Positions 8,754 through 64,000 of a stretch of 64,000 bases of DNA are shown here, piece by piece; position 1 is the first letter of the stretch, and every line of letters starts with the position of its first letter. The notes beneath the pieces are model-generated. The model did no database searches. It had not been told where the DNA came from and saw only the letters and a program-made list of their open reading frames with translations. A program made the translations under genes and the position numbers. Origin of the DNA: Eledone cirrhosa (Eukaryota); the NCBI GenBank assembly GCA_964016885.1, contig OZ024740.1, forward strand, positions 177,258,001-177,322,000, read 5' to 3'.

Positions 8754-8859
8754 GAATTAACATTTAATATTCTACCATACTATTTCATTATAATATCATT
8801 ATAATTTTAAAGGATTGTAAATAAAACGAGTAAATCAGACAAAGTTAGAATTCCTTTTA

Positions 8860-8912
<53 letters not shown>

Positions 8913-8940
8913 AACATGTATATATATTATATATATATAT

Positions 8941-10176
8941 GAGTTTTACCAACAGGTTACGGGGGTAGCCATGGGTACAAGAATGGGCCCGAACTATGCC
9001 AAACTTTTTGTTGGCCATGTTGAGGCCCAAATCTTTGCCCAGTTCACCGGCCCCACGCCCGAACTGTACGGTCGTTACATTGACGACTGTATCGGAGCCA
9101 CAACCCTCACCCGAGAACAGCTCGACTCCTTTCTCTCCTTCTTCTGCTCCTTCCACCCCTCCCTCCACTTCACCACCTCTATCTCCACCACCCACGTCCA
9201 CTTCTTAGACATCTCCGTCGCCTTCGACCCCTCCCACCACTCCCTCGTCACCTCCGCCTTCTTCAAACCCACCGACTCCCACTCTTACCTTGACTTCACC
9301 TCTTCCCACCCCACACACACTAAACACTCTATTCCCTACTCCCAACACCTCAGGATCCGCCGCCTCTGTAGCCGAGATGCTGACTTCGAGTCCCAGGCCC
9401 TTTCCCTAGTCAGCAATTTCATCCGCAGAGGTTAACTCCCCCCCCCCCCCCTCTCTCTCTCGTCCACACCGCTCTCACCCGCGCTCGTGCTGTCCACCGC
9501 TCTCACCCGCGCCCGTGCTGTCCACCGCTCCACCACCCTCACGCCACCGCACACCCACCGTCTCCCCTTCCCCATCACCTACCACCCCTCCACCTTACCC
9601 CTCCACCGCACCATCCGCCGCCTCTCCCGACGCCTCCAGTCCGACCCCTCCACCTCCCACATCTTCCCAACCCCACCACTCCCCTCCTTCAAACGCGCAC
9701 GCAATCTCCGCACCCTCCTCGTCCACAATTCCCTACCCCCAACCCACGCTCCCCCCCCCGGTTCCTTTCCCTGTTCTAGGCCCCGCTGCAACACCTGTCC
9801 CCACATCACCAACACCACCACCTTCCAGGGTCCCAACGGCCACTCTCTCTCTGTCCGGCATGCCTTCCGCTGCACCTCCTCCAACCTAGTCTACGGACTT
9901 CGCTGCACGGAGTGCAGCGCGACTTACGTCGGACAGACGGGACGTCGCCTGGCGGACCGATTCACTGAGCACCCCCGGGATATTCGTCTCGGTGGTAGTT
10001 CCCCCAGCGCCCACCACTTTGGTGCCCCTGGACATTCCGCACGCGATCTCACAGTCTATGGCCTACTCCAATGCCACGGAACACCCGCCAATCTCCTCAG
10101 AGTTGAACAAAGAACCATCTTCATCTTACAGACCCACACTCCCCCCGGCCTGAACTTCCCACCCTTATTCCTTTAG
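8941..10176 (+). pseudogene. PLE RT/GIY-YIG ORF, broken at ~9435-9490
   Basis: Track ORFs 8971-9435 and 9487-10176; stop, poly-C/CT insertion and short duplication between them. Confidence 0.9.
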
Positions 10177-26984: not shown

Positions 26985-28985
26985 CTCTAGCCTCCACATT
27001 TCTATTCAATGTACAAGGTGCCAGGTCTTCCATCAATATACAAAAATGAAAGATCCAATTAATTAAGGATTCACTTGGTAACCGTCCACATCACATCCCT
27101 TTCTTTCCCCTTACTGAGACCCATCTCGACAACTCCCACTTGGTAGCTGAGGTGAAGTTAGGAATTTCACAAGCATGCGCGCGGATCGTGTCGGCAGAAC
27201 GGAAGGTGGAACTGCCATTTTCCTGCATGATTCCTTTGCGGTAGACGGCAATATCATATTCTCCAATGACTCCTGTGAAGCAGTCACCGTGCACAACAAA
27301 GTCAATGATTTGATTGTAGCTGGGCTCTATAAGCCACCCCAAACGCCAATACTGCGCTTTAAAGAATGCCTCAACAGCATTAAGTGTTTTATACAACAGT
27401 GTCCTTCTGGTAAAATACTTATGATGAGAAACTTTAATCTACCCTGTGTTGATTGGTCTACAAACAGTTTGAAACCAGACACTTCCACCTCAACCGCTGA
27501 CAAAGCAACAGTAGAGACACTAGTCGACTTTATGGATATGTTTTCCATGTCCCAACTTATCTTTGCAATAACAAGATATCAGAAACACATTTTGGACCTA
27601 GTGTTTAGTAACCACATAAACACTATACATAATATTACAGTGGAAAAAACTCGTTTTTTTGGACCATGACTTGGTTCTCTGAAACCTGAGATTCCACCAG
27701 CCGAAAGCTAAACCCAATGACCTCTCTATAACCCACCCATTTGATAACATGGATCTTTATAATGCCAACTGGGATGCAATCACTAACGAGTTATCACATG
27801 TTGACTGGTCTTAACACACGTACACATCTCCACCAACATCAAAACATCTTGGAAGATATTTGGAGACTGTCACAAACATATGTGCAAAACACACCCAACC
27901 AAGACTTGTGAACAAAACTAAATGCAGAATCCCCCAAAACAGAAAAACTATTATCAGAAAAAAAAGAACAAAAATACTCCAACAAACTAAAATACTGCCA
28001 CCGAAAACACACACATTCGACTGCTATCGCAATGCTCGAATAAAAGAAAATAACCTCCAACAATGCATGAAGACCATCATCAATAACCAAAGAACAGCTG
28101 ATGAGAAATGGACCATTGAGAAAAATCAAACTCAATCCCAAAGTATTCTTTTCATTTGCGAAAAAAGACAAGGTCAATGTCTCCACTGTGATTATTGAAC
28201 ACAAGGTCACTGTCTCCCTGTGATTATTGAAAATAAAACACTCGAAGACAATCCTAAAACCATGTGTAAGATACTGCAGAAACAATACTGCTCTGATTTC
28301 AGCAAACCTGATATGGCTGATCTGGGCTGTATCAGTGATGTTAATCCCCAACACACTGTATCGGACATCACGTTTGGCGCCCCTGATATCTTAGCGGCAA
28401 TAAACGAAATTAATAGTCGTCCCCGATAGGTTTCCTGCTAGTGTCCTGAAGGTGTGTCGACACCAACTTGCATCTCCTCTAGCTAATCTTCGGAAGAACT
28501 TACTGGAACCTGGCTATATACCTGAACACTTTCTGTCCCAGTCTGCTGCTCCAGTTTTCAAAAAAGGGAACAAGTTCCTTACAGTGAAATACCATCCGAC
28601 CTCACTCACCTCTCATAACATTAACGTATTTGAGAGGATGATGAGATCAAGAATAACTCACTTTTTTGAAAGCAACAATCTGCTAAATTCCAACCGTAAT
28701 GGACGAGACTGCTTAACGCAGTTCCTGCCTCACTTTGATGACATTTTAAAAGCTTTGGGAGAGGGCTCAAATACTGATGTCATATACCTTAATTTTAGCA
28801 AGGCCTTCGTATGTTTAGAGAGTTACTGCAATGAATCAAGTTTTTCTAGTCGAAGAAGTAAAATCAAGCGTAGTCAAAATCAGTAGTGGCGTTCCACATG
28901 GTACTGTGTTGGACTCACTTCTTTTCAATATCTATATCAATGACATTACTGACGCCATTAGGCACAGCAACTTAAGAATCTTTGC
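26985..28985 (+). mobile_element. decayed CR1/L2-like LINE ORF2 (APE endonuclease + partial RT)
   Basis: FNVQG, RADRVGRTEGG, GLYKPP, NFNLP..W, LDLVFSN, PVFKKGNK..YHPTSLTS, YLNFSKAF, SGVPHGTVL..LLFNIYINDI; many frameshifts. Confidence 0.88.
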
Positions 28986-29138
28986 TCATTTGCTTTGGAT
29001 CCTCCATATCTACAATTTCAAATTTTCCAAATGCTTTTTATGTCCAAGGCTTTATCTCTCTCTCTCTCTATATATATATATATCTGTCTGTTTCTCTGTC
29101 TATGTGTCTATCTCTCTATTTCTCCCCATTTTCTCTCA

Positions 29139-29169
<31 letters not shown>

Positions 29170-29233
29170 TATCTCAACCTCTCTCTATATATATGTATAA
29201 ATATATGAATAATAGATTTGAAGACTAAAATAC

Positions 29234-30699: not shown

Positions 30700-32385
30700 A
30701 GCAAAGACGCCACCATTAAGAAGCACCGGGGAATTTATCCAGCCTAAAATTTCACAAGGCTGACTGGAAAGAGATCCAGAAGTAAAACTGGAGCGACAAC
30801 ATCACCACACAAGACACCAACACACATTTTCAACATTTCATGACAACACTACAAACCTTTTGCCATAAATTTGTCCCGGAGAAAAAGGTCAACGGACACA
30901 AAATTCGTATTCCCAGAGACAGGAAAATCCGTATGAGACGAAGAACTAAGCTCTCAAACCAGTTAAATGTACAACAGAAAAACAAAAAGGAACCCTATCT
31001 GAAACAGGCACTACTTGAAATTGAAACTGCACTCAAACTTTCCCATGTGAAAGAGAGGACAGAGAGAGAAGCCAAGGCCATAAAAAATATTAAACCAAAT
31101 CCTAAAGCCTTCTTTAAATTTGCAAAAGGAACTGCCTCAGTAAGATTGGGCCACTCTTCCATAAAAATGGTTCACTAACCGAGGATCCCCAAGGGATGAG
31201 TGAAATACTGAATGAACAGTACAAAAGTGTGTTCACACCCCATTGAGACACATGCAAATAACAAAGCCAGAGGATTTCTTTGATGCCACAACACTCCACG
31301 AAGAAATGGCGACCATCAACCACATAGACATAACGGAGGAAGATGTGATATCCGCCATAGACGAAATTAGAACAAACTCAGCTGCTAGACCTGATGGATT
31401 CCCAGAAGTCCTCCTAAAAACATGTAAACGTGCCTTAGCGAGACCACTGAAGATCCTCTTCAGAAGTTCTTTGGCTAGTGGTAAACTACTCAAATAGCTA
31501 AAAGAAGGCACAATATGCCCTATCCATAAAGTAGGAAGCCAAAAATTACAGGCCAGTCTCCCTGACGTCACATATCAGTAAGGGCATGAAACTGATCAAG
31601 TTCCTTGAGGAAAATGACCGCCTAACTAGCACACAGCATGGCTTTCGCCCAGGAAGAAGCTGCCTTACACAGCTGTTACAACACTATGACTGGGTACTGA
31701 AACAACTGCTGGACAGCTCACATGTGGAAGTGATATATTTTGACTTTGTTAAGGCCTTTGACAAGGTCGACCACGGAATGATATGCCACAAACTACACAG
31801 ACTCGGCATAATTGGAATCGTAGGTGAGTGGCTATCATGATTTTTTAAAAGACAGAAGCCAGACAGTTGCAACCAATGGGGTCCTCTCAAAGGAAACATC
31901 AATAACAAGTGGGGTGGCGCAGGGCACAGTCTTGGGACCACTACTGTTTGTGATGACTCTCTCAGACATGCCCTCTGTAGTACATACAACATCCCCCACT
32001 AGCTATGCTGATGTGATGACACAAAGGTAGCACAGGCAATCTAAAACCCAACAACATCTGGATGCCATATACAAATGGGCTGAGGACAACAACATGCAGT
32101 TTAATGCTAGAAAATTTTAAGCCCTACAATACCAACCTGCTAACACAAAGACAATACAACACAGCTACACCGGACCAGGAGGGATCGAAATCCCCGTGTC
32201 GAAATCGATACGAGACATAGGGATAGACATAAGCGATGATGCATCTTTTTCTTCACACAGGCGACTCGTTGACTGGATCTTGAGGACTTTCCGGACAAGA
32301 CCGTGAGACCATGTTGATACTATGGAGGACATTTGTCCTAAGCCGCCTGGACTATGGTGCGCGTCTACCTGAAATGGAAAAAAAA
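30700..32385 (+). mobile_element. decayed CR1/L2-like LINE RT fragment
   Basis: NPKAFFKF, SAARPDG, QHGFRPGRSCLTQL, YFDFVKAFDKVDH, SGVAQGTVLGPLLF, SYAD, RDIGI. Confidence 0.9.
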
Positions 32386-36281: not shown

Positions 36282-39200
36282 CTACAGACGTATATTCAGA
36301 GTGGTCTTGTTCACTCGGACCATTCTCGCTACATTCACCCACCTTTCAACAAACTTGCTAGAAGGTAGCACTTGCTTCTCCACCCTGATTTTCCTCTTCA
36401 AGTGAAACTTGAAAAAGTTAATTAGGGATTCGCCGAAGAGGAAAGTGTCTGTCTTTAACCCTTTTAACCTTGTCCACCACACAATCTCTTTCGCCATGGC
36501 CACTAGGCAGATGAAAACCGCCTGCCCTTCCTCCTCGAAGGAAGACGGCGAGACTATCTGCACAATGGACTTAGTCGACAACCGGATCAGTCCCACACGC
36601 GACAGAAACTGTTCGACATAGCTCCACAAGTCAGCAATGCTCGGGCACTGAACGAGTGCGTGCACAATGGTTTCGTCGCTCTGCGCGCATCTCGGACAGG
36701 CTGGGCTGACGGTACTTCCGTGCCTGTAGAGCTTATCTCGAACCGGCAGCGCTCCCCGGTAGCACTGCCAGGCCAGGGATTTTTGGAAGTTATCCATAGG
36801 CCCCCGGGCTGAAAGTTCTCCGGAAGAGCGCAAACAGCTGATCTTCTTCGGCGCCCAGGATCTCTACGAGAATGTCGTCGCTCTTCCCCTCCACTAGTCC
36901 TCTATAGAACGCCGAGGTGGATGTTCCACCGATACTGGTGCCCAGCTGGGAGAGGGCAGTGAGCGCCTGGAGACATTCCAGTTTCCAAGCGCTATCCCTC
37001 GGTCTTTTTCTGACCCAGGACTGCAGCTCCGTCAAGGAGACGAGCTGTGGGAAAACGTGCCTGGCGAACGGCGACCACACCCGTTCACCATCAAGGAAGC
37101 ACCAGAGATGTCAGAGCCTCAGCGCATGTTTGCTCATCATCAGCCATGGCATGCCCAGTCCTCCACGCAACGGGTGTTGACAGCAGATGGATCGTCTGAC
37201 CAAGGGAGCGCGTCCCTTCCACAAAAAGCGGAAGAGGAGGCGCTCCATTTTGGTGAGATTTCGGCTGGAGCAAGGGACGACGGTGAGGCGGTAGCAGATG
37301 ACGGATGCGATGTACGCATTCGCCACCTCCGCCCGGCCTTTCAGCGACAGCTTCCTCTCAGTCCATTTCTGGCTGAGGGAGGACACCCTGATCGTCACCT
37401 CGTTCCAGTTTTTCGGTCCGAACCAGACCCCGAACAATTTAACCGGTCCTCCGTCCAACGCCACACGACGCTGTCGGACGGCATGGACTTGCCTCTCCAG
37501 GTGCCGAGCTGCAAGCCCACCGACGTTTCCTGGTTTATCTTTGTTCCTGTCACTGCTTCGTATTCCTTGAGAGCGGTGCCGAGAATCTGGACGTGCCTGG
37601 TGCTCGACACCACCACGGTGACGTCGTCAGCGTAAGCCGACTCGGATTTCCCGCATCCTAGTTCGCGTGGGACGCCCCTAATCGCCCCCAGTTTGTGCAG
37701 TAACGGCTCGAGAGCCAATACGTACAAGAGGTACGAGAGGGGAAACCCTGGCGGACTGAGCGCATGATGCTGAACGGCTGCGACAGGTGACCGTTCGCCC
37801 TCACAACTGAGCAGATGTCGCTGTACATTGCTGCGATCCAACCCCTCAAAACGGGCCCGAAACCGGCTGCCTCGAGGACCGCCGCCAGATACCGATGGTC
37901 GACCCTATCGAATGCTTTGGATTGATCCAAGTTGATCAGGGCCCCACCCTTGCCAGGTTCTTTAACCACCCTCTCTATGATGTATCGCATGAGGTGGAGG
38001 TTGTCGTGTATGGATCTGTCCGGAATGGCGCATGTCTGCGCCTCTCTCACCAGACCCTTGACGACAAGCGCCAACCTCATTGCTAATACCTTGGCCAAAA
38101 TCTTGAACTCTGCGTTTAGCAGGGTTATGGGCCTGAAATTATCGATAACATCCCCCTTGTTCGGGTCTTTTCTCAGCAGCGCCACTGCTCCCCGGCTCAC
38201 AAAACTGGGAATGCTCCCGTTCTGCTGCCAGTTGCAGTAGACATCTGCCAAGAGATCACCGAACAAGTCTGGCATAAATGCATAAAGCTCGTAGGGCAGA
38301 CCATCTAAACCTGGCGATTTACCCCTTGTGCAGTTAACCATCGCTTCCCGTATTTCACCAGCTGTTATTGGCTTTTCGCAACACTGTGCTGCGGTCGTCG
38401 AGAGCCGAGGCAGTCCGTCGAGGTATGCACTGAAGTCAATGCCCCGATCCGGGCTGCCGCCGCTCCCGAACAGTTCAGCAAAGTGCTGCTGAAAAGCTTC
38501 ACACATCCGCTCGGGTTCGAACATCACGCAACCATTTTGGTCAGACAAAGACCGAATTGTAGCTTTGTTGCCACGTCGCGCCTCTCCCACCCGGGCCCAT
38601 TGGACGGCTTTTGTCCCCTCGTGTTTCAGAGCAGGCGCTCTAGCTCTGACAACGCAGCCTTCGTGTTTTGCGTTGAAGAATTGGTCGAGTGCCAATCTCG
38701 GCGCAAGCACGTCGGTTGCGATGCCTGTGCTAAACGCCTCTTCTAGCTTTCTGACTAGCTCTCCCTCTACTCTATTTTCCTCTATCACTACTCCTTTGCT
38801 AAACCTAATCGACTCTACTTTAATTGCCCTTTTCAGGGCGAACCACCACCTGTTGTTGACGACCGCTCCCGTCAACGCCTGCTTAACTAATACGCTAATC
38901 CGGTCTCTGTAGGCTTTGCGCACCGGGAAAGACGCGTTCAGCTTCCAGTAACCAGGCCCTTGTCTATGAAGTCTGTCTATGTCGATCTCACAGATCACAA
39001 ATTTGTGGTCTTTGTAGTCGACTATTTTAAATTGTGGACAACTTATACTAGCCTTATCTAGTTACCTGCAGAATACCCTATCGAGATACGATCTGGATGA
39101 CCCGATACGGTTTGTCCATGTCCACATTGGCACATTCGGGTGATCCAGTCGATACCTGTCAGACAGTTCAAAACGTCTGAGCAGGTTGATGAGGCTCTTG

Positions 39201-39685
39201 CACCCTCCTCCCCTATCCACTAGCCTCACATGATCCCAGCGTTCATCCAAGATACCGTTCCAGTCGTCCACTAACACTAAAGAGCGGGACGTTCCAAGAA
39301 AGGTCTCTAGACGTCTGAAAAAATCTGGCCGTCCTGCCCCCGTTCGGGCGTAGACGGCTACTAGCCTGAAAGCATTGCCTTCGCTGCCGGTCACGTCCAG
39401 CACCACCGACTTACCTTCTGGGTCTAGGAAGATGGCCCGTATCGCGAGATCCAAGCCTCTCCGAAAAAGGACGGCAACCCCTCCCCCCGATCCTGGACGG
39501 CTGGGAGATGCGTATACATCGTAGCCGCCGAAGATCGGTGCGAAGGCTTGTGCTTCGGAGATTCTGGTTTAACTGATGGCCACCACATCTATGTTTAGTG
39601 ACCTGAGGTTATTGAGCAGGTGACCCTGCTTCCAAGATGACCCCAGCCCACGTGCATTTATACTGCCTATTCTGAGTACAGCCAT
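36282..39685 (-). pseudogene. LINE ORF2: APE endonuclease, reverse transcriptase, C-terminal zinc finger (frameshifted)
   Basis: ATG at 39685 (MAVLRIGSINARG), RLVAVY, DWN, SYLDR, GPGYWKLN, KSPGLDGLP, NFRPITLLN, LDQSKAFDRV, SVRQG, AYADDV, CPRC..ETIVHALVQC. Confidence 0.93.
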
Positions 39686-39717
39686 GTTGGATGAGAAACG
39701 GGGCAAGTGAGAAAGGG

Positions 39718-41745
39718 TCACTTACCTTGTTCGTGTGGTAAAGGGACAGTAGAACCGTCCCTTTCGCTGGTCATGGGTGTTTCCAAGAGGATGTCAGTGT
39801 ATATCCTCTTGGTAATCGACCCTCTGAAGTCTCCAACTGCGTTGGGGAATTTTTGTTTTGAAGGTTTGTACTGTTCTATTGAGATTTCGATGATGCTTAT
39901 GTTTGTCGGGAGAGTTCTTGGTGTTGGTGGGGTGTAGTAGTTTTTTCTGTGATGTCTGTGTGCTGCTTTATATATTGTATGATTTCTTTTTTTGCCATGT
40001 ATATGGCTGTGTACTTTTTGGGGGGAGGGGTGATTTTGTTGCTGTTTGGTGTGTGTGTCTTGCTGTGTTTGCGTTGTTGGTGTTTGTGGTGGTGATGGTG
40101 ATGGTGTTGCTGCAAGTTTCCTTGCTGCCTTTACACTTCTTTGTATGCCTTCGCTTTTGGAGGGTGAATCTAAGGGTTTTTTCTTTTTTCTTTTTTCGTG
40201 GCAGACCCTTTGCCACTTCACTCCCGCTCAAACTCCATGTCGGATTCTGTGGCGTCTGGGAGGGGTATGTGCTCCACGGCTATTGGTTGTGGTAGTGGAG
40301 CCCTCTTCGACAATTTTGTTGCTGATGTAGCTACTTCAAATGTAGCTATTGCTGTTGTCGCTACTGATGATGCTGCTTTAGTTGTCCGTGGCCTTGGTAC
40401 GGGTGCTACGGACATTACCTCCCTACTCACCGTGGAAGGGGCTGCTTCGTTTGATGCCTGCCCTGCTCTTGGTAGCAGCGGACCAGGTATTGGAAGGAGA
40501 GGGGGCCTTCTTCGCTGTCTTCTGCGGGCAAAAGGCCCTGAGGTGACCTTTCGACCCACAGAGATAACATTTTGGCCGTCTTCCTTCTACACTTATAGGG
40601 AGTTGGAGTCCTTCCTCGATGTCTATGATATCGGGGATAGCCTCGATACATTCCTGGTCAGTATAAGCATTTGCATGCCTATACCTGACCAGTTCTCTCT
40701 CCCTATTTTTTCTACTTGCAGCATGGTCGTGCTGTTCTTGATTCCAGCAAGGACAGACGGGGCCAGCCAAGGTATGGGCACGTCGGGTGGGACCTGGGTC
40801 ACTTTGACCCTCACAATTTTCTGCCCGCAGTAGGAGGGCACCAAGACTATCTCCTCACTCTTTAGGGTTTCCAAAGAGTGAGACTTTACTTCCTGGGGGT
40901 GGCGAAAAGTACGTCTACTGTGGCGTAGTTTCTGCCTCGGGTGATGTGGGTTTTGCATGCCCAGACGAACCCCAAGGTCTTTGGGATTTGAGCCTCCGTG
41001 GCTCTCTCCACTCGATGTGAGATTTTGCTTACGGTGCGGTAAGTCACCGTCCGTAGCTGCTGGTCCTTGAAAAAATCGGGTGGAGGTTTCAGGGAAACTC
41101 TATTTGCGCTTCTTGTCACCATGGCCCTTGCGACTGCCATCTCCTCCTCTGTGACTAACACTGTCTCGATATTTCGGGCGACACCTGCAAAAGAAGTGGT
41201 CCCTTTTTCAGTAGCACCACTATTGCTGCCGCTACTGGTCTTACTGGTGGTGCTGAGATCGCTATTACAGGTATCGGTGTCATTGTTGTTGTTTTCGTTG
41301 GTACATTTTTGGTGTTGTTGTTGTTGTTTTCGTTGATACTGTTGCTGTTGTTACTGTTATTGTGGCTGTTGTTATTATTGTTGTTTTTGTTGATACTGTT
41401 CCTACTATTATTGTTGTTGTGGCTGTTGTTATTGTCATTGTTATTGTCGTTCTCGACTTTACCGCTGTTATTTTTGTTATTGTCGTTCTCAACTTTACCG
41501 CTGTTATTTTTGTTGTTGCTGTTGTTATTGATGGTGTTGTTGTTGGTGATGTTGTTGGTGTTATTGTTGGTGTTGTTTGTGTTAGAAATATTTGTTAATT
41601 TTAAATCTGTAACAATCTTTTTTTCCTTTGTAATATTTTCGTTTATATTTACCTCCGCTGGAACGCTGTCTTGTTGACATGCTGATAAAGTCTCCCTATC
41701 TCTGTGTTGTCTGACAGCGCTCTCTCTCTTTCTTGTGTTATCCAT
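39718..41745 (-). pseudogene. LINE ORF1 (gag-like; Asn-rich N-terminus, CCHC knuckle), frameshifted
   Basis: EGRRPKCYLCGSKGHLRAFC knuckle in 40423-40770; overlapping ORF pieces 41745 to 39718 upstream of ORF2. Confidence 0.8.
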
Positions 41746-49601: not shown

Positions 49602-50355
49602 ATATGAAAAAGTTTGTCCTCATCAGTGGCCATCCAACCGTCGTAGGCATTTCGTCGCATTAGAGGCCATATACCTCAGGTTGGTGCGAGCAACGGCTAA
49701 AAAAAAAGTCGTTGGGACACGTAAATAAGGGGGACGCTAGGGTAAACGAACAAAATGGTTTAAGCAGCAGAAAGTAATGTCAAAGGAAACAAGTCCCAGA
49801 TTTCTATGAATATAAATTCGGTGAAATCGTGAACGAGAGAATAAAGACTATCAAACCTGGTTGAAATGTGAGCAAGGAAGGAATTTCGCACAGGTCTAAC
49901 GGGAGGAAGAAGGGGTCTGGTCTGCGAATTCGGCAAACATAAGTTCTGTGAAGTCGCAGACGAGAGAGAGCCGGTATGATTTTTTTTCTCTCTCTCTCTC
50001 GTCTGCGACTTCACAGAACTTATGTTTACCGAATTCGCAGATCAGACCCCTTCTTCCTCCCGTTAGACCTGTGCGAAATTCCTTCCTTGCTCACATTTCA
50101 ACCAGGTTTGATAGTCTTTATTCTCTCGTTCACGATTTCACCGAATTTATATTCATAGAAATCTGGTACTTGTTTCCTTTTTCATTACTTTGTGCTGCTT
50201 AAACCATTTTGTTCGTTTACCCTAGCGTCCCCCTTATTTACGTGTCCCAACGACTTTTTTTTAGCCGTTGCTCGCACCAACCTGAGGTATATGGCCTCTA
50301 ATGCGACGAAATGCCTACGACGGTTGGATGGCCACTGATGAGGACAAACTTTTTC

Positions 50356-58201: not shown

Positions 58202-58744
58202 TATAAAAAATTGATGAGCAGAAAAAACAAACATTAAACAATCCTTTAAATAAATTAAAAAATAATTCAAATATCTACCTGTTCATAATGCTATTAGCGG
58301 CGGTTTCCATCCACAAAAGATTGGAAATTCAGAGAATTTCCAACGGAAAGTAGATTTCATCAGATAGCTATTTCCTTTCTATAGGACGTATATCCCAGGG
58401 AAAAAAATTCGTTGTTGCTTACTGCTATTTTTTTTTAGCAGCCAAGCCATCAACAAGTCTGTAATATTCCCGCTTGCTCTAGTGGCCAGGTCACGTATGG
58501 GTCACTTTAACTCATACGAGCTGGTAGTTAGCATTATATTTACGGACCCTGGGACATATGTCCTATAGAAAGGAAATAGCTATCCGCTGAAATCTACTTT
58601 CCGTTGGAAAGTCTTTGAATTTCCAATCTTTTGTGGATGGAAACCGCCTGTAATAGCATTATGAACAGGTAGATATTTGAATTATTTTTTAATTTATTTA
58701 AAGGATTGTTTAATGTTTGTTTGTTCTGCTCATCAATTTTTATA
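58202..58744. mobile_element. foldback/MITE with ~200-bp TIRs (58202-58400 / 58547-58744)
   Basis: tataaaaaattgatgagcagaa...cccaggg versus ccctggga...ttctgctcatcaatttttata. Confidence 0.85.
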
Positions 58745-58856: not shown

Positions 58857-59419
58857 GCATATATATATGTGTGCATGTATGTATATATATATATACATAC
58901 TACTGTACGTCGGTATACATATATGTATGTACGTGTACATACTTATATTTAAGTAACGGCCGTACTAAGAGTGGGAAATGAAATATCGTTTCATTTTTTC
59001 CGTTTATCGTTTTCGGTGCACCCGGCCGATTAACCCACTCGATATGCAAATTTGGCTACTCAGCCGTTAATATGCATAAGGTAAGTATATACGTTCAACA
59101 ATCTGGCAGGAAGGTATACGTTGCTGACGATAGCTAACAAGCTTGAAACTAGTACAGCGTTCCTTTGTCAGTGTTGAACAAACGAGCAACGGTGGTTGCT
59201 AGACACTACGGCTTAATACGGGATGTTTGTTTACAAACACACCAAGCATTATAATAAATGTTCGGTGAATCCATACGTGCATATATATATGTGTGCATGT
59301 ATGTATATATATACATACTACTGTACGTCGGTATACATATATGTATGTACGTGTACATACTTATATTTAAGTAACAGCCGTACTAAGAGTGGGAAATGAA
59401 ATATCGTTTCATTTCTTCC

Positions 59420-59425
<6 letters not shown>
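58857..59425 (+). mobile_element. candidate retrozyme/pLTR tandem: 418-nt period, ~1.35 copies, one HHR
   Basis: 58857-59007 repeats at ~59279-59425 (offset 418 at tactgtacgt and gtgggaaatg); no ORF. Confidence 0.6.
59118..59160 (+). ncRNA. minimal type I hammerhead ribozyme
   Basis: acgttg CTGACGA TAGCT aaca AGCTT GAAA CTAG TA cagcgt: 6-bp stem I, palindromic ACTAGT stem III, GUA site. Confidence 0.85.
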
Positions 59426-59497
<72 letters not shown>

Positions 59498-60010
59498 TAG
59501 GTTTAAATCGAAGTTGTAGCTGCAATGGGGCAGATACCAATCGAACTTTTTGAGGCAGTAACAAAGCAGTCAATGGGACGAAAAGTTAATGTACTTGCCC
59601 AGAGTTAACACAAGATTATATAGGTGTGACACCATGAATATATCGACTAGGTGTATGAAGCTATAGTATAAAACCACAATAACGACAAATACCAACAAGT
59701 AGAAGATTAACCTGCACCGGATCAATTCGGTTTCTGGAAACCCCAAAAAGTGCATTACGTGTTGCAATATGCATATGCCAGTCGTAAGTGCCCCTAGCAG
59801 TTGTTATAAATATATAAATATATATATAAGTATATATTACACAAAAAGAAGTGTGTTACACAGTGAGATGTGTGTAAAGAATTATTACGAGTGATTTTAC
59901 CGTAACTGTATAGAGAACAATATCTAGAGGTTAGCAATTAAATAGAAAAAAACCAATTCAGAATCAAATCTCTGGATTAGAGTTTTAAATCCCAAACCTT
60001 ATAACAATAT

Positions 60011-60085
60011 TTTGCTGATACGAATCTCGCTTCGTTTCACCACTTATATGTGAAGAATCAGGTCACAGGATCCTCCGTCAGCAAA
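60011..60085 (-). ncRNA. type I hammerhead, copy 1 (core mutated CTGAGGA to CGGAGGA)
   Basis: tttgctga CGGAGGA tcc tgtga cctgattct tcaca tataagt ggt GAAA CGAA gcgaga TTCG TA tcagcaaa. Confidence 0.7.
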
Positions 60086-60546
60086 TGCGAGCACTGAACA
60101 CTACACATGGATAGAGAGATTGCTAGTAGACACGCTGGCCAGAGTATGGCGAAATCACGTGTTATTTGCATCAAATAACGGCTCTCATGGATTGGGGAAG
60201 TCGCTAGAAAGTGCAGCCCAACCATTCGAATTTATTAGCTCAACAATTTGGAGCTCATTAAGTATACAAAGATCGGAATTAAGAGTATTCCGCAGTTCAC
60301 TGTAATAATAATAATAGTATTAGCTCAAAGAAGGATAGAGAATTTCCTTCTGAGCTCAAATGCAAGTATATATTACACAAAGAGAAGTGTGTTACACAGT
60401 GAGATGTGTGTAAAGAATTATTACGAGTGATTTTACCGTAACTGTATAGAGAACAATATCTACAGGTTAGCAATTAAATAGCAAAGAAACAATTCAGAAT
60501 CAAATCTCTGGATTAGAATTTTAAATCACAAACCTTATAACTATAT

Positions 60547-60621
60547 TTTGCTGATACGAATCTCGCTTCATTTCACCACTTATATGTGAAGTATCAGGTC
60601 ACAGGATCCTCAGTCAGCAAA
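60547..60621 (-). ncRNA. type I hammerhead, copy 2 (intact core)
   Basis: tttgctga CTGAGGA tcc tgtga cctgatact tcaca tataagt ggt GAAA TGAA gcgaga TTCG TA tcagcaaa: 8-bp stem I, stable stem III, GUA site. Confidence 0.82.
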
Positions 60622-60718
60622 TGCGAGCACTGAACACTACATATCTAACCTCATGGATAGAGAGATTGCTAATAGACACGCTGGCCAGAGTAGGGCGAAA
60701 TCACGTGTTATTTGCATC

Positions 60719-61238
60719 TGGTGAAACGAAGCGAGATTCGTATCAGCAAAATATAGTTATAAGGTTTGTGATTTAAAACTCTAATCCAGAGATTTGATTC
60801 TGTTTTTGTTTTTTTTTCTATTTAATTGCTAACCTGTAGATATTGTTCTGTATACAGTAACGATAAAATCACTCGTAATAATTCTTTACACACATCTCAC
60901 TGTGTAACATACTTCTCTTTGTGTAATATATACTTGCATTTGAGCTCAGAAGGAAATTCTCTATCCTTCTTTGAGCTAATACTATTATTATTATTACAGT
61001 GGGCGGTGGATTGGCAGTATCGGTAGAGGGTCGGACGCCATGCTTTCCAGCATAGTTCCGTCCCTTTACGATCTGAGTTCAAATCCCACCGAGGTTGACT
61101 TTGCCTTTCATCCTTACGGGGTGGATAAAATAAAGTACCAGTAATGCACTGGATAATTGCTGGCCGTGTGCCTAATGTAGAAACAATTATTATTATTACA
61201 GTGAACTGCGGAATACTCTTAATTCAAATCTTTGTATA
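60719..61238 (+). repeat. inverted partial third copy of the 536-nt unit, starting inside the HHR and interrupted by a SINE
   Basis: tggtGAAAcgaagcgagattcgtatcagcaaaa... is the reverse complement of ~60263-60579. Confidence 0.9.
61001..61186 (+). mobile_element. full-length tRNA-derived SINE with target-site duplication
   Basis: A box tggcagtatcgg, B box gttcaaatcc, core gcctttcatccttacgggg..gataaaataaagtaccag; ttattattattacagt on both sides. Confidence 0.9.
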
Positions 61239-61410: not shown

Positions 61411-61510
<100 letters not shown>

Positions 61511-61650
61511 TAAAGAGTTAAACAAGATTCAATGAGTACATCAAAGAATGAGTTTTACAGTAGATTGGAAGCACTCTACAAAGGATATTTTGCAGAGTTA
61601 TTAATATGAATTCAAATATTAACAAAATAGATATTCTTGTGATCAATTAA

Positions 61651-61715
61651 ATTTTATTATACATATTTCAGAGGTACTGAATCAAGTTCAACAGTACGTC
61701 CTCATCAGATAAAAT
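61651..61715 (-). ncRNA. type I hammerhead antisense to and just upstream of the Naiad ORF
   Basis: Minus strand: attttat CTGATGA GGA C GTACTG ttgaacttgatt CAGTAC C TCT GAAA TATGTA TA ataaaat; 7-bp stem I, AUA site. Confidence 0.78.
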
Positions 61716-61718
61716 AAA

Positions 61719-63818
61719 ATGATACATGAATCTTTATTTAAATGTAGAAAGAATCCTCCATACAACAAACTCCTGAAGGATTTTGAAACTGAAATGCTCG
61801 GTATACTTAAAAAAATTAAATTTAGGAAAAACCCATATATAGGTCACCAATACCTTAGAACTCTAAAAGAAAAAATCACGGAAATAAAAAAGTTAACAAA
61901 ATATTGATTAAATCGGACAAAACAAACAATTTATATGGGATAAACAAAGAAGAATATAATAACTTGATTTTAAAGGAACTTAGGAAAAATTATAAATAAG
62001 CCCCGGCTGAAGATCTTACAGACATTAATGATGATGTATATAAATTAATTACCAAATTAGGAATCGAAGGAAGAACAGAGCCACTTATACCTAGGCAGCC
62101 GCGGATCAACTTAAAAGATCACAAAAGAAACTTCGAGGAACACTTGCCAGTTAGACTGATTGCTCCATCCAAATCGGATATTGGAGTAATCAGTAAAAAC
62201 ATTATTGATAGAATTCTACCTGCTCTGAAATTGAGGTCTAAATTGAGCTTGTGGAAAGATACAAACGAAGTCATTGAATGGTATAAGAATATAGATAATA
62301 AGAAAAACCATAAATTCATCCAGATGGACATAACAAGCTATTATTCTTCCATAACGCCCAACCTACTAAATAAGGCTCTATCATACGCTTACAAGCATAC
62401 TGATCTAATCACGGATGAAATTGATATCATATTAACAGTTAGAAGAACTCTTATTAACTTCGACAATGAGTATTGGACCCGCTCAGATAGAAATAGAAAC
62501 TTTGATATTACCATGGGGTCATCTGATTCAGCGCAAATCACGGATCTTCTGGGGATTTTCATATTAAATATGATAAATAGAAAACTGCCGGAGATTACCG
62601 GTGGTTTATATAGGGACGACATTTTATTTACGGTTGTCAAACACAACAATATTGAACTAATTAGAGTAAAGAAAAATATAATTGAATTCTTTAAAATGTA
62701 TGACCTTAAGCTAGAAGTAGAAAGTGGTACCAAAATAGTTAATTTCCTTGATGTTACGTTTAACTTAAACTCTGGCTTTTATTACCCTTTCCATAAGCCC
62801 AATGAAAACTTAAATTACGTTAGTTATTACTCCAATCACCCTAAGTCAGTAAAAAAGCAATTGTAAATAGTGTGCAAATAGAATATCTGCCAATAAAGCA
62901 ATATTTGATGAAAATGCAGGATATTACAACGAAGCGCTAAAAAGATCAGTTATGAGAATAATATAGAATATGTAGATAATAATAATCCAAGTTTTAATCC
63001 TGACAAAAATAATGGCATATATAAACGAAATTCTATAAATTCTAGTAATTATAATTCTAGTAATTATAACACCTATACTGGGAACAAATCGAGGAAAAGA
63101 ACCATAACTAAATCAGTTATATGGTTTGCCCCCCCCCCTTGCTTCTGTAGCAGTAAGAACACCAATAGCTAATTTATTCTTTAAAGCTTTGGATAGCTCT
63201 TTCCCTAGTCAACATAAATACCATTCCATTTTTAATAGACACACTATTAAATTATCTTATTCTACAACTATGAATATGGCCCAAAACATTGCTAAAATAA
63301 ACAGCAAAATTCTAAATCAAAATCAGCATAATGATATTAATAAGAGTGTTAACATAAATAATAATAAATCAAAATGTAATTGTAGAAATAAACCAGATTG
63401 CTCTCTGCAAAATAATTGTTTGGACAGTAATTTGGTGTATAAATGCACCGTAAAAACTGATAACAAGGCATACAACTAGATAGGAGCGACTTCTTCTACA
63501 TTTAAGGCTAGATTTGCGAATCATAAATGCTCATTCTCGAATTCTAATAGGAAATCTTCGACTTCTTTATCACAGCTTATATGGTCATTAAAAGACAAAC
63601 ATTTAAAATACTCGAACTTTTGGACGAAACTTTGTAATAGTGGAGTTTATCTCAACTCAAGTATATCAAGTAACTGCGCCCTCTGTACAATGGAGACCCT
63701 ATTAATAATTAATAATTATGAAAACTTAATTAACAAAAAAAGTGAATTATTCTCAAACTGCCTTCATAAAGCTTTGTCTACATTCCAAGCCTCGCATAAA
63801 GTCAGGAAAAAACAGTAA
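61719..63818 (+). pseudogene. Penelope-like element, Naiad type: RT + GIY-YIG endonuclease, decayed
   Basis: KDHK.NF...PVRLIAPSKSDIGVISK, MDITSYYSSI, FDITMGSSDSAQ, GLYRDD, VNFLDVTF, PFHKPN..YV..SNHP, IFNRHTIKLSYS, KCNCRNKPDCSLQNNC..NLVYKCTV..AYN*IG.T..FK.RF.NH. Confidence 0.9.
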
Positions 63819-64000
63819 GCAACCAAGCCTGGTTTTTAGACGTACATCATCAACTGTTGAACATATAAATCATAACGGCTTATAAAACTTTAATAATGTT
63901 TTATCTTCTAATCATTTATTTTGGAAATAATGTTTGAATGAGTGACACTTGTTGAATAACTTGCTTGCAGGTTGGATATGCATAACCTATGGCTTTTTGG

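What the first reader, a model, noticed from the sequence alone, without database searches (positions are those of the whole stretch)
59828..61238. Candidate 536-nt hammerhead retrozyme (circRNA-forming tandem repeat) next to a Naiad PLE
Seen: a non-coding 536-nt unit repeated head-to-tail. Each unit carries a minus-strand type I HHR with an 8-bp stem I, a real stem III hairpin (CGAA-gcgaga-TTCG), a GUA site and an unusual long bulged stem II; extra hairpins lie in the body (agaagga/tccttct, gttatttg/caaataac). Known: metazoan non-LTR retrozymes are HHR-bearing tandem repeats that self-cleave to monomers, circularise, and are thought to be mobilised by PLEs. Inference: this is such a family; the unit is on the long side and the HHR should fold as a monomer, unlike minimal PLE HHRs. 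I do not know of a description in this lineage but cannot search.
Basis: partly seen in the sequence, partly recalled or inferred. Interest (0 to 1): 0.85.

Follow-up and report, generated by a model that had tools for sequence, protein, structure and literature searches.

The report
Protein-less Penelope parasite with ribozyme
This is one of hundreds of scattered copies of a ~545-base, protein-less mobile element that carries a hammerhead-ribozyme motif and ends just before the same two small hairpin motifs as Hydra-type Penelope retrotransposons, whose enzyme it likely borrows to copy itself, possibly from an RNA circle.

Summary
The repeat and the hammerhead (HHR) motif are real, but this is neither a tandem array nor beside a Naiad. 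The locus is one insertion in (TA)n: 1.66 head-to-tail units, then an inverted arm split by a later SINE. The unit is a dispersed, ORF-less family of several hundred copies in at least three subfamilies; 0 of 103 loci join an ORF in sense. Of 180 arms, 151 end at one of two sites 101 nt apart. In the tandem, each site is followed by an RCTC…GAGY hairpin. The same hairpin follows both ends of two autonomous Hydra-clade families here and appears in published Hydra consensus sequences. The neighbouring PLE is Hydra clade. The HHR has a Hydra-type U·U at the base of stem II and a covarying 5-bp pseudoknot; Rfam misses it. Best reading: a non-autonomous Hydra PLE (retrozyme) copied in trans, with the hairpins marking internal RT start sites. 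Seamless copies longer than one unit, without long arrays, favour a circular template (~50%). Cleavage, expression and the partner family are untested. One window HHR copy has a core mutation. New variant of a known kind.

The parts
59828..60363 (-). Full unit (q1-536), 3' unit of the left arm; its 3' end at 59828 is end site 1 and abuts (TA)n
60364..60718 (-). 5'-truncated upstream unit (q192-536), seamless head-to-tail with the full unit, 94% identical
60719..60935 (+). Inverted arm, q322-536, beginning inside the HHR (3' half only, 60719-60750)
60936..61238 (+). 101-nt tail (q1-101) of the inverted arm, split by a SINE; ends at end site 2, abutting (TA)n
61002..61185 (.). Later insertion of an abundant SINE-like repeat; 18-bp target duplication at 60984-61001 and 61186-61203; not part of the element
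60011..60090 (-). HHR copy 1: pseudoknot 5' strand 60086-60090, stem I 60078-60085/60011-60018, core 60071-60077 (U4>G), pseudoknot 3' strand 60063-60067, GUA cut 60019/60018
60547..60626 (-). HHR copy 2: intact CUGAGGA core, one U-G wobble in stem III, GUA cut 60555/60554
60323..60355 (-). Hairpin 1 (GCTC, 7-bp stem, TT bulge, GAGC), starting 9 nt after end site 1 of the upstream unit
60944..60976 (+). Hairpin 1 in the tail of the inverted arm
60238..60254 (-). Hairpin 2 (GCTC...TTGAGC), starting 9 nt after end site 2 (q101, 60263)
61502..61729 (-). Neighbouring Hydra family A element: inverted pLTR piece with its own, different HHR (about 61652-61716)
61728..63820 (+). Neighbouring Hydra family A ORF, frameshifted: DKT, RT, CxCX5C linker, C-terminal GIY-YIG; a separate insertion in the next (TA)n tract

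Best explanation
The locus is one insertion of a dispersed, ORF-less ~545-nt element whose copies sit in (TA)n tracts and end at two fixed sites, each just before a hairpin motif shared with Hydra-clade Penelope-like elements; it is likely copied in trans by a Hydra reverse transcriptase/endonuclease that would bind these hairpins and start cDNA just upstream, probably on a circle made by the predicted pseudoknotted hammerhead. Shown: family, anatomy, two ends, hairpin position, HHR motif, absence of an ORF link. Inferred cycle: (1) a locus with two HHRs in one arm is transcribed; (2) both HHRs cut after GUA and a host ligase closes the monomer; (3) the Hydra protein binds hairpin 1 or 2 and nicks (TA)n, and the nick primes at the UA-rich site 0-12 nt upstream; (4) RT runs up to about two turns, giving seamless partial tandems; (5) a second priming at the other site gives the inverted arm with or without the 101-nt tail. 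Steps 3 and 5 are strong inferences (~0.8). Steps 1, 2 and 4 (the circle) are about 0.5. This window copy is probably dead as a circle source.
For: Family: 1,122 and 1,109 first-look candidates, 40 scored each; 288 exact hits of a 22-mer. Ends: 77 arms at q95-104 and 74 at q522-536 of 180, 139 of these abutting TA; 69 of 103 loci have inverted arms. This is the PLE anatomy of Craig 2021. Contigs of one outside sample show TA loose ends at the same two sites. No ORF link: 0 of 103. Hairpin after both ends in the unit, in Hydra family A (24 of 24 scored ends at two sites about 96 nt apart) and in family B. The motif also lies after a TA-rich end or before the ORF in 4 of the 6 consensus sequences of Craig's File S7, read by eye. 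Background chance about 1% per 16-nt window. Hairpin bases have no polymorphic column in 63 copies. HHR base T-CC...GG-T-GAAAC matches a Hydra fragment in L202 and the U.U pattern of most Hydra HHRs. Two internal RT starts make the tail in a Poseidon element and need downstream RNA. Pseudoknot: 2 pairs with double changes plus one A-U/G-U pair in a 5-bp helix. Circle: 31 tail-ended arms contain a further internal hairpin 2, yet only 1 of 181 arms has two. None of 140 fully listed exact hairpin-2 junctions has a same-strand neighbour one unit away. Unit junctions are seamless (105 of 119) and 5' ends do not pile up at the cut site.
Against: No autonomous family with alignable sequence was found, so the partner is unnamed. 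Direct fusions at the tail end point both ways: L019 to Hydra family B, L044 to a Poseidon-like RT. The active HHR fold is far from the nested minimum. HHR core and stems are no more conserved than the rest of the unit (6/53 versus 64/441 polymorphic columns, p=0.68). Covariation counts sequences, probably 1-2 events per pair; about 100 of 2,485 column pairs covary through shared ancestry, and pair 287-314 is broken in 10 of 62. Two measures that count pairs or types did not beat the shuffles (395/500, 497/500). Young family B carries a U4>A core, and both arms of L008 share a core mutation, so cleavage may be dispensable, as in Poseidon in vitro. L045's tandem units carry different shared variants, which one monomer circle would not give. 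In the 2026 preprint 8 of 9 predicted retrozymes did not cleave. 29 of 180 arm ends lie elsewhere. Sixty of the 130 fetched loci were picked by best score, which favours long copies.
Confidence: 0.75

Rival explanations
1. Same non-autonomous Hydra element, but copied from linear read-through RNA, either from a rare multi-unit master or by RT jumps from the RNA 5' end back to end site 1. The HHR is a weak or protein-assisted passenger and no circle is needed.
For: HHR not needed for Poseidon insertion in vitro; unfavourable HHR fold; U4>A core in active family B; mixed units in L045; a handful of the 14 hairpin-1 copies lacking the upstream unit end start within a few bases of q1.
Against: No master long enough among 181 arms or 140 listed junctions, although three subfamilies each gave tail-ended arms of 750-1,250 nt. 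Junctions lack jump scars. Compensatory changes in stem I and the pseudoknot imply the HHR fold mattered in source copies.
Confidence: 0.35
2. The unit is the pLTR of an unsampled autonomous PLE; the copies are 5'-truncated insertions.
For: Same ends, tail, target and HHR type as Hydra pLTRs; many Hydra families were not surveyed (37,682 RT candidates; only flanking fragments seen).
Against: Upstream of the unit lies the unit again (105 seamless junctions), never an ORF (0 of 103). Hairpin 2, which precedes the ORF in families A and B, is followed here by about 150 nt and then the HHR.
Confidence: 0.07
3. The element is moved by a non-Hydra PLE (Poseidon, Neptune or Naiad) and the hairpin likeness is convergent or a general PLE trait.
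For: A Poseidon-like PLE is in the window (8821-10176) and is fused to the unit's tail in L044; other clades also target (TA)n. Non-Hydra PLE ends were not screened for the hairpin.
Against: Hairpin sequence, bulge and offset match the Hydra families; the ~100-nt tail matches families A and B rather than the 30-40 nt cited for other PLEs; the HHR base is Hydra-type.
Confidence: 0.12
4. A DNA-level satellite or palindrome with a chance hammerhead-like string.
For: No Rfam hit; folding z-score near 0 for the isolated motif.
Against: Dispersed copies with fixed 3' ends, variable 5' ends and a (TA)n target; complete core with compensatory stem changes.
Confidence: 0.03

Closest known systems
Metazoan non-LTR retrozymes (Cervera & de la Pena 2020, PMC7229834; Li, Clavereau & Pollet 2026, 10.64898/2026.07.22.740005)
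   Same: ORF-less repeat with one type I HHR per unit, low GC, co-occurring with PLEs; length within the 51-972 bp range of the 2026 survey; proposed circle-templated copying by a PLE RT.
   Different: Dispersed insertions of 0.1-2.2 units, 69 of 103 with an inverted arm, not multi-unit arrays; two fixed 3' ends; a cis motif tying it to one named PLE clade; longer than the 170-400-nt circles shown in invertebrates; expression and cleavage untested.
Hydra-clade PLEs (Craig et al. 2021, PMC8557442)
   Same: (TA)n target, partial tandem plus inverted copy, tail on one end, HHR near the 3' end with U.U at the base of stem II; the paired hairpins are visible in their consensus sequences.
   Different: No ORF; no alignable sequence to families A or B; stem II insert of 32-34 nt with a predicted pseudoknot. 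The paper's main text does not mention hairpins or non-autonomous Hydra elements in the passages searched.
Non-autonomous Chlamys elements such as MRC1 (Craig et al. 2021)
   Same: Non-autonomous PLE forming pLTRs and head-to-tail insertions.
   Different: Those share 3' sequence with autonomous families and most Chlamys lack HHRs; this one keeps only short motifs plus an HHR.
Poseidon element PAc (Frangieh et al. 2024, PMC11167929)
   Same: Two internal RT start sites bracket the tail; downstream RNA is required; AT-rich target.
   Different: Other clade; AC-rich stem-loop inside the ORF, HHR upstream overlapping the ORF start; here two similar hairpins about 100 nt apart in non-coding RNA.
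Pseudoknotted hammerheads (Perreault et al. 2011, PMC3088659)
   Same: A base-paired stem I-stem II contact, a very short stem II and U10.1-U11.1 are all described as compatible with activity.
   Different: Here the contact is between the strand just 5' of stem I and the start of a long stem II insert, in an animal repeat; not assayed.

Membership tests
Non-LTR retrozyme | No protein-coding capacity and no attached PLE ORF | tested here: met
   No ORF of 120 aa or more in the locus; 0 of 103 loci with a Hydra ORF in sense into the unit
Non-LTR retrozyme | Type I HHR motif in each unit | tested here: met
   Core, stems I and III and GUA across 63 aligned units; no Rfam match
Non-LTR retrozyme | Tandem organisation with at least two consecutive complete HHRs | tested here: met
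   7 of 181 arms, including this locus; no long arrays
Non-LTR retrozyme | Self-cleavage | not testable with these tools
   Nested folding does not favour the active form; pseudoknot energy not modelled
Non-LTR retrozyme | Unit-length linear and circular RNA in vivo | not testable with these tools
   No RNA run was available to lay; copy structure is only indirect evidence
Hydra-clade PLE (the unit, as non-autonomous partner) | (TA)n insertion, partial tandem and inverted copies, tail at one end | tested here: met
   139 of 180 arm ends at the two sites and abutting TA; 69 of 103 loci inverted
Hydra-clade PLE (the unit, as non-autonomous partner) | Terminal sequence alignable to an autonomous family | tested here: inconclusive
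   None to family A or to 3' regions of nine other fragments; only short motifs shared; most families not surveyed
Hydra-clade PLE (neighbour at 61502-63820) | RT followed by CxCX5C linker and C-terminal GIY-YIG without CCHH; DKT; RWK-like motif; HHR | tested here: met
   Frames read by eye; 748-aa natural ORF of the family in L122; RWR-coding 5' part and HHR; criteria; no tree built; Pfam gave no hit
Naiad PLE (neighbour) | N-terminal GIY-YIG, DKA motif, no canonical HHR | tested here: not met
   Endonuclease is C-terminal, motif is DKT, HHR present
Satellite DNA | Long tandem arrays | tested here: not met
   Longest run 1,215 nt; no adjacent same-strand hits among 140 listed; collapsed arrays could be missing from the assembly

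The most novel reading that the evidence does not exclude
Hydra-clade PLEs use a conserved pair of bulged RCTC/GAGY hairpins as RT-binding start signals, and this element is a minimal circRNA parasite reduced to those two hairpins plus a pseudoknot-stabilised hammerhead. That would be a retrozyme with an identifiable address label for its helper, and genomic evidence that a PLE RT copies RNA circles into seamless tandems.
Probability: 0.4. Interest if true: 0.82.

Novelty: new variant of a known kind. Interest (0 to 1): 0.62.

Why it matters
Retrozyme mobilisation by PLEs has rested on co-occurrence, shared HHR type and pLTR similarity; the signal that recruits the RT and the role of the circle are open. 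This family supplies concrete, mutable parts: two hairpins that predict both insertion ends in the parasite and in autonomous Hydra elements from this genome and from a coral, a sea cucumber and a copepod, and an HHR with a predicted pseudoknot. That makes three questions directly testable: what defines the PLE tail, whether the ribozyme-made circle is the template, and how an RNA with no alignable homology recruits a helper. A two-hairpin module for (TA)n-targeted insertion could also interest genome-writing work. Rfam misses this HHR form, so similar families are probably undercounted.

Tried and rejected
Rfam scans gave no hammerhead, only microsatellite noise. Tandem Repeats Finder cannot see periods over 500. 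Expression: no RNA holder listed; three runs of one sample, kind unknown, contigs only, cannot show RNA ends or circles. Partner search: no similarity to family A loci or to nine other fragment 3' regions; the L019 fusion to family B is offset by the L044 fusion to a Poseidon-like RT. 5' ends at the HHR cut site: no pile-up, 9 ends spread over q341-355. Position-specific variants that would show a linear two-unit master: the recurrent 479/482 signal ran in both directions and is probably an alignment artefact; inconclusive. Whole-unit circular folding: z -1.5 to -4.9 on four copies with 25 shuffles, antisense similar, so not used; the deficit of variable columns in paired positions is circular reasoning. 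A direct count of HHR dimers was not obtained; arrays were judged from fully listed exact hits, which miss mutated copies. Pfam gave nothing for the neighbour. Earlier findings: none returned. Literature searches returned no description of this family or of the hairpin pair; the library lacks most subscription papers, Repbase and Dfam; preprint supplements and most of Craig's supplement (56 of 59 parts) were not read through.

Full report
What is at the locus. With q as the minus-strand coordinate of 59828-60363, BLAST against the window gives minus q1-536 (59828-60363), minus q192-536 (60364-60718, 94%), then an inverted plus arm q322-536 (60719-60935) running on into q1-101 (to 61238). A SINE-like repeat with an 18-bp target duplication splits that last part. 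Both outer ends abut (TA)n. So this is 1.66 head-to-tail units plus an inverted arm, not an array. The HHR motif is there: 8-bp stem I, CUGANGA, GAAA, CGAA/UUCG, GUA. Copy 1 has U4>G, copy 2 a wobble in stem III, and copy 3 is a 3' half. Rfam reports no hammerhead.

The family. The genome is 3.0 Gb in 1,796 contigs. No call named the organism; my guess of a cephalopod is from recall and untested. The unit gave 1,122 candidates, 40 scored, full-length hits 89-95% identical. Exact patterns gave 118 and 288 hits against 0 for controls. An older subfamily at 77-82% is also ORF-less. Of 130 fetched loci 103 were unique; 60 of the 130 were picked by best score. They hold 180 arms: 77 end at q95-104, 74 at q522-536, 29 elsewhere; 139 of the 151 abut TA; 69 loci have two inverted arms; the longest run is 1,215 nt. 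Contigs from one outside sample of unknown kind show TA loose ends at 60263 and 60367, the same two sites. Sixteen loci have Hydra protein fragments within 1.5 kb, none in sense into the unit. This is the PLE insertion anatomy of Craig et al. 2021 (PMC8557442; read: abstract, Results part 1 of 4, the Hydra section, searched passages, supplement parts 2, 52, 53 of 59).

The neighbour. Its frames read DKT, RT, CxCX5C, then GIY-YIG with CxxC and CxH motifs, and a natural 748-aa ORF of the family has the same order. That meets the Hydra criteria and fails Naiad; no tree was built. This family A has its own HHR (6,053 exact hits of a 21-mer) and no alignable sequence to the unit. It is next door because both target (TA)n.

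The new observation. In the tandem, each end site of the unit is followed 9 nt later by a hairpin with base GCTC / TT-GAGC (q9-41 and q110-126). The base columns have no common variant in 63 full units, and the upper stem of hairpin 1 keeps A-U, G-U or G-C at one pair. Family A ends at two sites, 51-66 and 146-152 nt past its HHR (24 of 24 scored; 7 unscored), each followed in tandem copies by an ACTC or GCTC...GAGY hairpin. Family B, with copies 98-99% identical, has two ends about 100 nt apart; of 32 and 23 contexts, 14 and 13 run into TA and 13 and 7 into such a hairpin. By eye the motif is also in Hydra-2_Amil, Hydra-1_Ajap (twice), Hydra-2_Ajap and Hydra-1_Crog, and is unclear in Hydra-1_Obim and Hydra-1_Amil. 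Background is about 1% per 16-nt window. Frangieh et al. 2024 (PMC11167929; parts 1-2 of 4 read) showed that a Poseidon RT starts at two internal sites that bracket the tail and needs RNA downstream. I infer that these hairpins are the Hydra equivalent. Eight searches found no description of them, and 'hairpin' and 'stem-loop' do not occur in Craig's main text. The library is partial and non-Hydra PLE ends were not screened.

The ribozyme. The base T-CC...GG-T-GAAAC matches a Hydra fragment in L202, and most HHRs in Craig's Hydra table have U.U at this place. Variation concentrates in the loops (11 of 22 columns versus 6 of 53 in core and stems, p=6e-4), but core and stems are no quieter than the rest of the unit (64 of 441, p=0.68). 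The five bases 5' of stem I pair with the start of the stem II insert: C-G 49/U-A 6/U-G 5, U-A 26/C-G 25/broken 10, A-U 36/G-U 26; stem I's end pair is U-A 45/C-G 15. These are few events, and many unrelated column pairs covary by descent. Pseudoknots, tiny stems II and U.U are known in active hammerheads (Perreault 2011, PMC3088659; passages and section 8). Without the pseudoknot the active fold lies 7 kcal/mol or more above the minimum, so easy monomeric cleavage is not predicted.

Circle or linear template. If a start at q101 needs hairpin 2 downstream, an arm that ends at q101 and also contains an internal hairpin 2 needs a template with two. There are 31 such arms of 573-1,246 nt (9 of 19 hairpin-2-bearing arms among pattern-picked loci), but only 1 of 181 arms has two internal copies, and none of 140 fully listed exact junctions has a same-strand neighbour one unit away. 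Junctions are seamless in 105 of 119 cases, the GUA junction is intact, and 5' ends do not pile up at the cut. A ligated circle explains this; 7 arms, including this one, have the two HHRs needed to release it. Against: precise RT jumps or an unassembled master would also do; L045's units differ at shared variants; family B thrives with U4>A; the Poseidon HHR is dispensable in vitro; 8 of 9 retrozymes did not cleave in the 2026 preprint (parts 1-3 of 5 read). I put the circle near 0.5.

Partner. Unnamed. L019 fuses the tail end directly to family B, but L044 fuses it to a Poseidon-like RT, so later insertions into the TA tract explain both equally well.

Verdict. Retrozymes as non-autonomous PLE derivatives are in print (PMC7229834, parts 2-4 of 6 read; the 2026 preprint). 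This is a new variant: dispersed, tied to the Hydra clade by a hairpin pair that predicts both ends, with a pseudoknotted HHR that Rfam misses. Activity and expression are untested. Interest 0.62.

Noticed in passing
L003, L009, L013, L015, L024, L032, L035, L095, L100, L119 and others (flanks): A very common short element, often a palindrome in (TA)n, with the 3' half of a hammerhead (GAAAC-GGC...GCC-GTC), two ends about 80 nt apart and the same ACTC/GAGT hairpin after the first end. Nearly all copies stop before a CUGANGA core (35 genome hits with one within 32 nt, mostly heterogeneous). Its full-length form was not found.
   Followed up: partly
L031:4600-8550 (just past the window end); L220-L239: Hydra family B, copies 98-99% identical, so recently active; its HHR has CAGAAGA (U4>A) in the copies displayed, with U.U at the stem II base.
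   Followed up: partly
window 61502-63820; L062-L091, L122-L129, L170-L199: Hydra family A has over 6,000 exact HHR hits, a 3' UTR of about 1.4 kb and a 32-nt stem II region; at least eight more divergent Hydra-like fragments occur in flanks, so the clade is large in this genome.
   Followed up: partly
L019:2135-3241 and L044:1627-3025: The unit's tail end (q95-96) is fused without TA to a 5'-truncated PLE in sense: Hydra family B in L019, a Poseidon-like RT in L044.
   Followed up: partly
window 8821-10176 (+): A second PLE of Penelope/Poseidon type (RT with YIDD, C-terminal GIY-YIG), frameshifted; clade label from recalled motifs.
   Followed up: no
window 61002-61185, with copies near 1784, 6518, 16541, 33372, 46819, 50922: Abundant SINE-like repeat; also seen inserted in the same ATT run of the tail in L131.
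   Followed up: partly
window 58206-58741 and 49700-50262: Long inverted repeats (195- and 271-nt arms, 95-98%); possibly further two-arm PLE insertions or MITEs.
   Followed up: no
window 58857-59003 and 59277-59423: Direct repeat of about 145 nt of another TA-associated element whose end also flanks several family loci.
   Followed up: no
window 36282-41099 (-): Broken non-LTR retrotransposon with endonuclease, RT and upstream gag-like frames; further LINE fragments at 27151-29208 and 30786-31178.
   Followed up: no
G000:C4:87488965, 87504672, 87523175; C11:5745573 and 5748233: Unit copies repeated at 15-18 kb spacing or as a 2.7-kb inverted pair, probably segmental duplications.
   Followed up: no
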